The position numbers were made by a program, and so were the translations under genes. Shown here in pieces: positions 1,200 to 7,860 of a DNA stretch of 64,000 bases. Source of the stretch: the human T2T-CHM13v2.0 reference genome, Homo sapiens; assembly GCF_009914755.1 (NCBI RefSeq), contig NC_060926.1. The stretch is one strand, 5' to 3'. The notes under the pieces are model-generated. The model did no database searches and was not told the DNA's origin. It saw nothing but the letters and a program-made list of their open reading frames with translations. Each line of letters begins with the position of its first letter. Positions within the stretch are counted from its first letter, which is position 1.

Positions 1200-1691
1200 G
1201 CTCAAAGAGCTTCACTCGAATAAATGGAAACGCAAAACATTCTTGGATGGGAAGACTCGGAATCATAAAGATGTTACTTTCTCCCTATGTTAATCATTAA
1301 ATTTAAGTCCATACAATAAAAATGTCAATAGGATTTTTAAAAAATAAAATTTGATTTTAAAACTAATATTGAAATATAAACATGTGAGATAGCCAGAAAA
1401 TTTATGACCTTCCTTTCACAGACTAGAACACATTTTTTAGAACCTAGAATGATGAACAGACGAACAGACAGATCAGTGAAATATAACTAGAATTCCAGTG
1501 ATAGATCCAAACACATAATGGGTATTCAGAATATGATAAAGATAATATCTGAAATATTTTGAGTATAACACAAACTTTGGAAACAATAAAAAAAATTAGA
1601 TACAACTTCATCACATAAATATAAAAAATTCCTTCATGGGCAAAACACCATAAACAAAGTCAAAGGACAAACAACAAACTTAAAAGCAATA
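1200..1691 (+). mobile_element. Old L1M ORF2 fragment, left part of the host element interrupted by the L1PA
   Basis: TTCTTGGATGGGAAGACTC...ATCATAAAGATG and CAGATCAGTGAAATATAACTAG are degenerate ORF2 sequence; homology resumes after 7345. Confidence 0.6.
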
Positions 1692-2194
1692 GTAGGCAGT
1701 TCCAAGATGGCCGAATAGGAACAGCTCCAGTCTACAGCTCCCAGAGTGAGTGACGCAGAAGACAGGTGATTTCTGCATTTCCAACTGAGCTCTGAAGAGA
1801 GTAGTGGTTCTTCGAGCACGGAGTTTGAGATCTGAGAACAGACAGACTGCCTCCTCAAGTGGGTCCCTGACCCCCGAGAAGCCTAACTGGGAGGCACCCC
1901 CCAGTAGGGGCAGACTGACACCTCACATGGCCAGGTATCCCTCTGAGACAAAGCTTCCAGAGGAACGATCAGGCAGCAACATTTGCTGTTCAGCAATATT
2001 TGCTGTTCTGCAGCCTCTGCTGCTAATACCCAGGAAAACAGGGTCTGGAGTGGACCTCCAGCAAACTCCAACAGACCTGCAGCTGAGGGTCCTGACTGTT
2101 AGAAGGAAAACTAACAAACAGAAAGGACATCCACACCAAAACCCCATCTGTATGTCACCATCATCAAAGACCAAAGGTAGATAAAACCACAAAG

Positions 2195-3203
2195 ATGGGG
2201 AAAAAACAGAGCAGAAAAGCTGAAAATTCTAAAAATCAGAGTGTCTCTCCCCTTCCAAAGGAATGCAGCTCCTCGCCAGCAATGGAACAAAGCTGGATGG
2301 AGAATGACTTTGACGAGTTGAGAGAAGAAGGCTTCAGACGATCAAACTTCTCTGAGCTAAAGGAGGAAGTTTGAACCCATCACAAAGAAGCTAAAAACCT
2401 TGAAAAAAGATTAGACGAATGGCTAACTAGAATAACCAGTGTAGAGAAGTCCTTAAATGACCTGATGTAGCTGAAAACCATGGCATAAGAACTAGGTGAT
2501 GAATGCACAAGCTTCAGTAGCCAATTCGAACAACTGGAAGAAAGGGTATCAGTGATTGAAGATCAAATGAATGAAATGAAGCGAGAAGAGAACTTTAGAG
2601 AAAAAAGAGTAAAAAGAAACGAAAAAAGCCTCCAAGAAATATGGGACTATGTGAAAAGACCAAATCTACGTCTGACTGGTGTACCTAAAAGTGACGGGGA
2701 GAATGGAACCAAGTGGAAAAACACTCTGCAGGATATTATCCAGAAGAACTTCCCCAACCTAGAAAGGCAGGCCAACATTCAAATTCAGGAAATACTGAGA
2801 ATGCCACTCCTCGAGAAGTGCAACTCCAAGACACATAATTGTAAGATTCACCAAAGTTGAAATTAAGGAAAAAATGTTAAGGGCAGCCAGAGAGAAAGGT
2901 CGGGTTATCCACAAAGGGAAGCCCATCAGACTAACAGCGGATCTCTCGGCAGAAACTCTACAAGCCAGAAGAGAGTGGGGGCCAATATTCAACATTCTTA
3001 AAGAAAAGAATTTTCAACCCAGAATTTCATATCCAGCCAAACTAAGCTTCATAAGTGAAGGAGAAATAAAATACTTTACAGACAAGCAAATGCTGAGAGA
3101 TTTTGTCACTACCAGGCCTGCCCTAAAAGAGCTCCTGAAGGAAGCACTAAACATGGAGAGGAACAACCAGTACCAGCCACTGCAAAAACATGCCAAATTG
3201 TAA
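2195..3203 (+). pseudogene. L1 ORF1p, disrupted
   Basis: ATGGGGAAAAAACAG start. Fragments EIWDYVKRPNLRL and ARREWGPIFNILKEKNFQPRISYPAKLSF...HAKL*. In-frame stops and a frameshift. Confidence 0.92.
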
Positions 3204-3266
3204 AGACCATCGATGCTAGGAAGAAACTGCATTAACAAATGAGCAAAATAACCAGCTAACATCTTA

Positions 3267-7087
<3,821 letters not shown>

Positions 7088-7345
7088 ACAATGAGAACAC
7101 TTGGACACAGGAAGGGGAACATCACACACCGGGGCCTGTCGTGGGGTGGGGGGAGGGGGGAGGGATAGCATTAGGAGATATACCTAATGTAAATGCCGAG
7201 TTAATGGGTGCAGCACACCGACATGGCACATGTATACATATGTAACAAACCTGCACATTGTGCACATGTACCCTAGAACTTAAAGTATAATAAAAATAAA
7301 TAAATAAATAAAAGTAACTCAAGCTAAAAAAAAAAAAAAGCAACA

Positions 7346-7860
7346 ATATAAGTCATATCACCAAGAGCTAATTTCTTTAATCTATCTGAAGCTCCCACAT
7401 ATCAATAATAAAAACAGTATAATAGAAAAGTAGGCAGAGCATAGGCACAGTCAGGTCTCAGAAAAAGAATCACAAATGATTCATTCCTAAGAAAAGATGC
7501 CCAAACCCTATAATACAAGAAACGGAAATTAAAATCAAAGTAAAATAACATTTTCATCTATCAGATAGACTTCAGCAGTATTCTGTACTGTCAAGTGTAT
7601 AAGGAAACAGGCACACTAAACATTGTTGGTGGAAGTATTTAATATATACTGACATAACGTTAATAGTGAACAATTTGGAAATAGGGAAGACGATGTATTT
7701 ACATTTATAAACATGTACTGCAGCACAGTGATAATATCAAAATTGGAAAAGACAGAGACTACTAAAGCATGGTACATGAAGTGAATGGAATGAATGCTCT
7801 CTAGCCATCACAAAGAATGAGGCAGCCCTGTACCAAGTACCAAGTACTAAGATGAAATGA
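7346..7860 (+). mobile_element. Old L1M fragment, right part of the host element
   Basis: Degenerate L1 ORF2 end / 3'UTR motifs (GAAATTAAAATCAAAG...CATTTTCATCTATCAGAT; CATTGTTGGTGGAAGT). Confidence 0.55.

What the first reader, a model, noticed from the sequence alone, without database searches (positions are those of the whole stretch)
1692..2194. L1 whose 5'UTR intron is precisely spliced out (SpIRE 97/622-type integrant)
Seen: the L1 starts with its normal first ~97 nt (...TTTCTGCATTTCCAACTGAG, ending 1789) and continues directly with CTCTGAAGAGAGTAGTGG (1790). The whole 5'UTR is only ~500 nt. Known: in full-length L1PA, CTGAG is followed by the donor GTACCGGG (about nt 98), and CTTTGAAGAGAG follows the acceptor CTGTCTGACAG (about nt 622). 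The missing ~525 nt is therefore exactly a GT...AG intron, the signature of spliced integrated retrotransposed elements (SpIREs). Inference: this copy was reverse-transcribed from a spliced L1 mRNA and was promoter-crippled on arrival. The class is described, but this is the most distinctive structure in the window.
Basis: partly seen in the sequence, partly recalled or inferred. Interest (0 to 1): 0.8.

Follow-up and report, generated by a model that had tools for sequence, protein, structure and literature searches.

The report
Old L1 copied from spliced RNA
This is a dead, roughly 20-30-million-year-old L1 retrotransposon that was copied into the genome from an L1 RNA whose 5' leader had been spliced, a class already described in print, although this copy is missing from the published list.

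Summary
The L1 at window 1692/1695-7339 (+) joins ...CCAACTGAG (1789) directly to CTCTGAAGAGAGTAGTGG (1790). All 48 unspliced relatives fetched from the same genome carry one extra block of 493-543 nt at this point. The block begins GTACCGGG and ends CTGTCTGACAG. The same junction occurs at 157 places in this assembly and 0 in the reversed control, with unrelated flanks in the 18 copies checked.

The structure is a SpIRE97/622 as defined by Larson et al. 2018 (PMC5860796). On a tree, 11 spliced copies lie scattered among 48 unspliced ones, and the window's nearest relatives are unspliced. That fits independent splicing events rather than a spliced lineage.

The element is dead, with 7 stops in the ORF1 frame. 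It has an A14 tail and only a weak candidate target-site duplication.

It is not among the 116 published copies.

By-products:
- About 8 copies of an older 5'UTR type share the junction.
- 20 places show donor 97 joined to an acceptor near position 315.
- One copy has lost two introns.

Interest is low to moderate.

The parts
1682..1694 (+). Candidate 5' copy of the target-site duplication (AAAAGCAATAGTA). Its last 3 nt may instead be the first L1 bases.
   Evidence: AAAAGCAA is repeated exactly at the end of the poly(A) tail (7336-7343). It can be extended only with a 3-nt indel. It is not above chance in a shuffle test (947 of 2000 shuffles score as high), because the flanks are A-rich.
1695..1789 (+). 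L1 5'UTR 'exon 1', the part up to the splice donor, ending ...CCAACTGAG.
   Evidence: It is 95-99% identical to the first ~95 nt of 39 other L1 copies. In 26 of 27 intact relatives the next bases are GT(ACCGGG).
1790..2194 (+). L1 5'UTR 'exon 2' of 405 nt, from the base after the acceptor AG to the base before the ORF1 ATG.
   Evidence: It aligns over its full length at 90-94% to the stretch that follows ...CTGTCTGACAG in intact relatives.
2195..3214 (+). ORF1 remnant, broken.
   Evidence: 7 in-frame stops in 340 codons; the fragments match Pfam Tnp_22_trimer, Transposase_22 and Tnp_22_dsRBD.
3275..7087 (+). ORF2 remnant, broken. The limits are approximate.
   Evidence: the longest open frame is 343 aa; 3322-3768 matches Exo_endo_phos and 4865-5896 matches RVT_1. 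The position of the ORF2 end is read from recalled L1 anatomy and was not computed.
7088..7325 (+). 3' UTR, AATAAA-rich end, and a 12-nt non-A stretch (GTAACTCAAGCT) before the tail.
   Evidence: read directly from the sequence.
7326..7339 (+). Poly(A) tail (A14).
7336..7352 (+). Candidate 3' copy of the target-site duplication (AAAAGCAACAATATAAG).
   Evidence: Weak, as described for the 5' copy. The implied cleavage site on the bottom strand is TTTT/A.

Best explanation
The element is a spliced integrated retrotransposed element of the 97/622 type.

Proposed history:
1. An intact, L1PA5-like L1 was transcribed.
2. The spliceosome removed the ~525-nt stretch of its 5'UTR between the donor after CTGAG (G98U99) and the acceptor before CTTTGAAGAGAG (A620G621).
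3. The L1 proteins copied this spliced RNA into an intron of what is now MBOAT2, on the opposite strand, by target-primed reverse transcription.

The new copy kept both ORFs but lost most of the internal promoter. It probably never gave offspring and has since decayed.

Shown here: the exact GT...AG-bounded absence, recurrence of the junction at many independent sites, scatter of spliced copies among unspliced ones, the poly(A) tail, and the dead ORFs.

Inferred: the splicing event itself, the weak promoter of this copy, and the age of roughly 20-30 million years.
For: 1. Junction. 48 of 48 unspliced relatives show one single gap of 493-543 nt at UTR position 96-98. The donor is GT in 26 of 27 and the acceptor is AG in 23 of 27 by projection.

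2. Recurrence.
- 40 of 40 scored genome matches to 1692-2194 are colinear across the junction; the 39 others are 91-94% identical.
- The junction 30-mer has 157 places against 0 for the reversed control.
- The 100-nt upstream flanks of 18 spliced copies are unrelated: the best local score is 34 of 100 and the rest are 16 or less.

3. Spliced copies are a minority of the same sequence type.
- CTTT...AGT type: 1562 places, 2 of the first 100 listed are spliced.
- CTCT...AGT type: 38 places, only the window is spliced.

4. No spliced lineage.
- Of the 29 nearest relatives by ORF1 region, 0 are spliced.
- The window's 5'UTR is 94.0% identical to the unspliced L027, L019 and L022, and 93.8% to the best spliced copy.
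- On a tree of 59 rows, the spliced label needs 9 changes for 11 copies. The shuffled mean is 10.4, and 67 of 500 shuffles are as low.

5. No near-identical copy exists elsewhere; the best non-self hit is 94%. That fits an element with no offspring.

6. The class, its sites, its ~1.8% frequency and its weak promoter are published (PMC5860796; sections read).
Against: - The target-site duplication is weak: 8 exact bases, not above chance in the shuffle test.
- A 2-nt AG ambiguity at the junction means a microhomology deletion would leave the same sequence at a single locus.
- Larson et al. did not detect 97/622 splicing by RT-PCR in transfected HeLa cells. The splice is therefore inferred from genomic copies, not seen as RNA there.
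- The tree is nearly a star (34 of 56 inner branches have support under 80%), so descent from another spliced copy cannot be strictly excluded.
- Relatives were sampled as top hits to the window, not at random.
- No orthologous primate locus could be examined.
Confidence: 0.9

Rival explanations
1. The window's copy was made from an already spliced genomic element transcribed from a neighbouring promoter. The splice would then have happened one or more generations earlier.
For: - Larson et al. allow this in principle.
- A 2025 preprint (10.1101/2025.02.02.635956, passage seen) reports a SpIRE in RAP1GDS1 that regained mobility through the host promoter.
- The tree has little resolution.
Against: - The nearest relatives by ORF1 region are 0 of 29 spliced.
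- Spliced copies are not clustered on the tree: 9 changes for 11 copies, no better than shuffles.
- The window's 5'UTR is as close to unspliced copies as to spliced ones.
Confidence: 0.06
2. A full-length L1 inserted here and later lost the ~525 nt through a genomic deletion between the two AG dinucleotides.
For: The 2-nt AG ambiguity at the junction is compatible with a microhomology-mediated deletion.
Against: - A deletion would have to hit the same two bases independently at 157 sites, and those bases are exactly a GT donor and an AG acceptor.
- Other deletions in this region do occur, but they have different ends: gaps of 308 and 402 nt in L059 and L065.
Confidence: 0.03
3. The short 5'UTR is the native form of an L1 subfamily, and the ~525 nt was gained by other subfamilies.
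For: Many copies share the short form.
Against: - In each of three sequence types the short form is a small minority: 2 of the first 100 listed, 1 of 38, and 2 of the first 100 listed.
- Short copies are scattered among long ones on the tree.
- The boundaries are GT...AG.
Confidence: 0.01

Closest known systems
SpIRE97/622 (Larson et al. 2018, PLoS Biol, PMC5860796)
   Same: - Same donor and same acceptor, with the same ~525-nt absence.
- Near full length (about 5.65 kb, against 5.6 kb for their PA4/PA5 copies in S1 Table).
- Poly(A) tail, intronic position, and opposite orientation to the host gene, as in most of their intronic copies.
- One of its nearest spliced relatives, L003, carries the distinctive exon-1 stretch of their clone 15, labelled PA5. 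This was matched by eye.
   Different: - It is not among their 116 copies. I read S1 Table in full. Its chromosome 2 entries start at 193.0, 161.5, 131.4, 96.4, 77.1, 76.9, 49.1, 48.1 and 20.9 Mb; none is near 9 Mb.
- 'MBOAT2' and the window's flank and junction strings have 0 hits in the supplements. Long sequence runs are cut in the stored text.
- It carries CTCT instead of CTTT just after the junction, plus other private changes. It probably fell under their cut-off of more than 95% identity to an L1.3 probe. That is an inference.
SpIRE97/790, 97/853 and 97/976 (same paper; Belancio et al. 2006 and 2008, cited there)
   Same: Same donor at position 97 and the same route through a spliced RNA.
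   Different: These use acceptors further downstream (A788G789, A851G852, A974G975). The window keeps all sequence from 622 onward.
Ordinary full-length L1PA5/L1PA6 insertion
   Same: The body, ORFs, 3' end and level of decay are the same. The nearest relatives are such copies, at 92-94% over 1.5 kb.
   Different: The window lacks 5'UTR positions 98-621. By recalled L1 anatomy this stretch also holds the antisense promoter; that was not tested here.

Membership tests
SpIRE97/622 | Exon 1 ends at the G98U99 donor (...CTGAG | GT in intact copies). | tested here: met
   The window ends exon 1 at CTGAG (1789). 26 of 27 intact relatives continue with GT.
SpIRE97/622 | Exon 2 begins just after the A620G621 acceptor (...CTGTCTGACAG | CTTTGAAGAGAG in intact copies). 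| tested here: met
   AG by projection in 23 of 27; the other four are two point changes and two indel shifts. CTGACAG precedes this motif in most of the listed places.
SpIRE97/622 | The absence is a single clean block with no other rearrangement of the 5'UTR. | tested here: met
   one large gap (493-543 nt) in 48 of 48 pairwise alignments.
SpIRE97/622 | Hallmarks of L1 integration: poly(A) tail, target-site duplication, TTTT/A-like cleavage site. | tested here: inconclusive
   The A14 tail is present. The candidate duplication AAAAGCAA(+) would imply TTTT/A, but it is not above chance. Larson et al. report the same difficulty for old copies.
SpIRE97/622 | An independent insertion, not a segmental duplicate of another spliced copy. 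| tested here: met
   the best non-self match is 94%; the upstream flank is unrelated to those of 17 other spliced copies.
SpIRE97/622 | Reduced promoter activity of the spliced 5'UTR. | not testable with these tools
   Published for an L1.3-based construct only: about 7-fold against about 267-fold.
SpIRE97/622 | Same junction, or an empty site, at the orthologous locus in other primates. Never an unspliced copy there. | not testable with these tools
   No primate genome is held. The genome search covers only the window's own assembly and prokaryotes.
L1PA5 (or L1PA6) subfamily | Subfamily diagnostic positions, as in RepeatMasker/Dfam assignment. | tested here: inconclusive
   No named consensus is available. 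The nearest spliced relatives lie close to entries labelled PA5 in Larson's S1 Table: chr12 4.34 Mb, chr2 77.1 Mb, chr12 107.7 Mb, chr3 57.6 Mb, chr1 210.6 Mb. The coordinate matches across assemblies are approximate. The end branch is 0.048 changes per site.

The most novel reading that the evidence does not exclude
The published catalogue of spliced L1 integrants may be incomplete in kind as well as in number.

- Number: this assembly has 157 junction matches of the 97/622 type, against 116 published for the hg38 reference.
- A further integrant type: donor 97 joined to an acceptor near position 315 occurs at 20 places. All 4 copies examined keep the rest of the 5'UTR.
- One copy (L040) has lost two introns and keeps a 155-nt internal exon.
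- About 8 copies with the 97/622 junction belong to an older 5'UTR type. Larson et al. found one such copy in L1PA6 and none in L1PA7 or older.

If this holds, the L1 leader was spliced in more ways, and for longer, than reported.
Probability: 0.45. Interest if true: 0.4.

Novelty: new member of a known kind. Interest (0 to 1): 0.25.

Why it matters
For this locus, very little. It is one more dead L1 in an intron of MBOAT2, on the opposite strand, with no sign of function.

Its value is as a check on a catalogue. A clear SpIRE97/622 is absent from the only published list, probably because that list was built with a young-L1 probe at more than 95% identity.

Old spliced integrants are therefore undercounted. 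Estimates of how often, and for how long, splicing drained L1 amplification (about 2% of full-length copies over about 27 million years) should be redone on a complete assembly with subfamily-matched probes.

Tried and rejected
- **MAFFT alignment.** The multiple alignment of the window with three unspliced copies pushed the 98-nt exon 1 against the end of the intron instead of opening one long gap. This is an alignment artefact. I replaced it with BLAST projection and affine-gap pairwise alignment.
- The tree therefore rests on 11 spliced copies, not all of the roughly 157. Two much smaller fetches went through.
- **CTCT variant as a lineage marker.** I tested whether CTCT after the junction marks a spliced lineage shared with the window. 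It does not. CTCT...AGC is the normal state of an abundant older type (663 places, nearly all unspliced). Those copies are only 84-90% identical to window-type copies.
- **Target-site duplication.** The shuffle test was not significant.
- **Coordinate search in the supplement.** This found nothing because of how the text is tokenised. I read the table in full instead.
- **Sources not available.** Belancio et al. 2006 (PMC1415225) is not held, and I did not see the 2008 paper. I cannot say whether an acceptor near 315 is already in print.
- **Format errors.** Searches failed on term format.

Full report
**What is there.** Window 1692/1695-7339 (+) is a near full-length L1. Its 5'UTR is only about 500 nt...gtgatttctgcatttccaactgag ends at 1789, ctctgaagagagtagtgg follows at 1790, and the ORF1 ATG is at 2195.

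- The body carries L1 ORF1 domains (Tnp_22_trimer, Transposase_22, Tnp_22_dsRBD) and ORF2 domains (Exo_endo_phos, RVT_1).
- It is broken. There are 7 in-frame stops in the first 340 ORF1 codons, and the longest open frame is 343 aa.
- The 3' end has an AATAAA-rich stretch, 12 non-A bases and an A14 tail at 7326-7339.
- According to the annotation supplied with the task, the element lies in an intron of MBOAT2, on the opposite strand.

**Checking the junction against intact copies.** No named L1 consensus was available, so I used relatives from the window's own assembly.

- A search with the first 98 nt alone returned 29 non-self loci. In 27 of them the two halves of the window's 5'UTR are separated by 505-530 nt. 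One (L013) is spliced like the window, and one (L040) has a 155-nt piece.
- In the 27, the extra piece begins with GT in 26 (typically GTACCGGG). By projection it ends with AG in 23 (typically CTGTCTGACAG). The other four are two point changes and two small indel shifts.
- I added 21 more unspliced copies from a search with the ORF1 region. All 48 of 48 then give exactly one large gap (493-543 nt) against the window's 5'UTR in affine-gap alignment.
- The aligner puts the gap at position 96. Because exon 1 and the intron both end in AG, positions 96-98 are equivalent, and position 98 gives GT...AG.
- A MAFFT multiple alignment misplaced exon 1 and was discarded.

**More than chance, and not a local deletion.**

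- All 40 of 40 scored genome matches to 1692-2194 run colinearly through the junction. The 39 others are 91-94% identical.
- The 30-nt junction, with up to 3 mismatches, has 157 places (88 forward, 69 reverse) and 0 for the reversed control. The window is the only exact match.
- The 100-nt upstream flanks of 18 distinct spliced copies are unrelated, so these are separate insertions.
- A few of the 157 may be duplicates. For example, two places on contig 24 have identical strings.

**Spliced copies are a small minority of each type.** I searched with patterns that accept either CTGAG or CTGACAG before the exon-2 motif.

| Exon-2 type | Places | Spliced form |
|---|---|---|
| CTTT...AGT | 1562 | 2 of the first 100 listed |
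| CTCT...AGT (the window's) | 38 | only the window |
| CTCT...AGC | 663 | 2 of the first 100 listed |

This matches the published figure of about 1.8% of full-length L1PA1-6 copies.

**Is there a spliced lineage?**

- Of the 29 nearest relatives by ORF1 region (92-94% over 1.5 kb), none is spliced. 21 have gaps of 500-543 nt, two have odd gaps of 308 and 402 nt, and six show no exon 1.
- In the 5'UTR the window is 94.0% identical to the unspliced L027, L019 and L022, and 93.8% to the best spliced copy.
- The means are 92.7% to 48 unspliced copies and 93.7% to 10 spliced copies. The spliced set was chosen as top hits to this very stretch.
- A maximum-likelihood tree of 59 rows (11 spliced, 48 unspliced; exon 1, exon 2 and 560 nt of ORF1) needs 9 changes of the spliced label. 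The shuffled mean is 10.4, and 67 of 500 shuffles are as low. The window pairs with an unspliced copy.
- Rows left out of the tree were L011 and L041 (the window again), L071-L077 (too short), six loci without exon 1, and three with odd gaps.
- L003 has a long branch because it is 3'-truncated. It corresponds to Larson's clone 15.
- The tree is close to a star, so it argues against a spliced lineage but does not exclude one.

**Comparison with what is known.** Larson et al. 2018 (PMC5860796) define SpIRE97/622 by the G98U99 donor and the A620G621 acceptor.

- They found 116 copies in hg38, using a 100-nt probe from L1.3 at more than 95% identity. There was one copy in L1PA6 and none in L1PA7 or older.
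- The spliced L1.3 5'UTR drives a reporter about 7-fold over a promoterless vector, against about 267-fold for the intact one.
- They did not detect this splice by RT-PCR in HeLa cells.
- They regard SpIREs as dead ends.
- The window meets the two site criteria and the single-block criterion. The target-site duplication is only a weak candidate (AAAAGCAA exact, extendable with an indel, not above chance). The same paper reports this as common for old copies.

**This copy is not in the published list.** I read S1 Table in full. None of its nine chromosome 2 entries is near 9 Mb. 'MBOAT2' has 0 hits in the supplements. The window's flank and junction strings also have 0 hits, with the caveat that long sequence runs are cut in the stored text. 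I infer that the copy fell under the identity cut-off.

**Age and subfamily.** The nearest spliced relatives lie close to S1 Table entries labelled PA5 (coordinates across assemblies match only approximately). The window's end branch is 0.048 changes per site. I read this as L1PA5-like, possibly L1PA6, and roughly 20-30 million years old. That is an inference.

**By-products.**

1. *An older type with the same junction.* Seven fetched copies (L071-L077) share the junction but have an older 5'UTR type.
   - Their mean pairwise identity is 89.8%, against 93.2% within the window's type and 87.6% between the two types.
   - A 32-mer search with up to 1 mismatch lists 10 places: six of the seven fetched copies, one further place with the CTCT...AGC motif (C4:148546012, not fetched), the window, and two of the CTTT type. 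With the seventh fetched copy (L077), that makes about 8.
   - Their unspliced counterpart is abundant.
   - None lies near an S1 Table entry.
   - Whether they are L1PA6 or L1PA7 is open.
2. *A doubly spliced copy.* L040 has lost two GT...AG blocks (98-314 and 470-621 in the numbering of relative L036) and keeps a 155-nt internal exon. That exon is bounded by ...TTTTCCAATGGTCTTAG| and |GTAAACAAAG in intact copies. Its second junction is unique in the genome.
3. *Donor 97 joined to an acceptor near 315.* L040's first junction occurs at 20 places, against 0 for the control. All 4 of 4 fetched copies (L078-L081) lack only 97-313 and keep the rest of the 5'UTR. This acceptor is not among the four that Larson et al. 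list. I could not read Belancio et al. 2006 or 2008, so I cannot say it is unpublished.

**Verdict.** The element is an ordinary, dead member of a described class, and it is new only in being unlisted. The wider point is that old spliced L1 integrants are undercounted and that more splice forms exist. That point is modest and needs a proper genome-wide census.

Noticed in passing
L040 (G000:C1:226419925-226423018, L1 on the minus strand); junctions at locus 1500|1501 and 1345|1346: An L1 copy with two 5'UTR introns removed (98-314 and 470-621 in the numbering of relative L036). It keeps a 155-nt internal exon bounded by an AG acceptor and a GTAAAC donor. The second junction is unique in the genome.
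   Followed up: partly
20 places listed, for example L078-L081 (C5:159106628, C10:95044559, C15:74297587, C2:186802098): Donor 97 is joined to an acceptor near position 315 of the 5'UTR. All 4 of 4 fetched copies lack only about 217 nt and keep the rest. This acceptor is not among the SpIRE acceptors listed by Larson et al. (620, 788, 851, 974). The literature before 2018 could not be checked.
   Followed up: partly
L071-L077 (C2:149155831, C23:67209686, C23:79609618, C3:163134061, C10:84008359, C1:90090963, C1:104735369), plus C4:148546012 (not fetched): Copies with the 97/622 junction in an older 5'UTR type (CTCTGAAGAGAGCAGTGG). Mean pairwise identity is 89.8%. The unspliced form has about 650 exact places. 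None is near an entry of the published table. The subfamily (L1PA6 or L1PA7) is not assigned.
   Followed up: partly
Genome-wide, for example C23:97007014, C23:94789825, C23:106428790: This assembly has 157 junction matches, against 116 published copies in hg38. Several window-type copies on the X chromosome have no counterpart among the five X entries of the published table (approximate coordinate comparison only). Two identical hits on contig 24 (25084030 and 26703972) are probably duplicates.
   Followed up: no
window 7313-7325: Twelve non-A bases (GTAACTCAAGCT) lie between the AATAAA-rich L1 end and the A14 tail. This is either a very short 3' transduction or a decayed tail.
   Followed up: no
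L059 (C18:9428883) and L065 (C11:105021277): These L1 copies have only 308 and 402 nt between exon 1 and exon 2. They have partial losses inside the intron region with ends different from the splice sites. They were not examined further.
   Followed up: no
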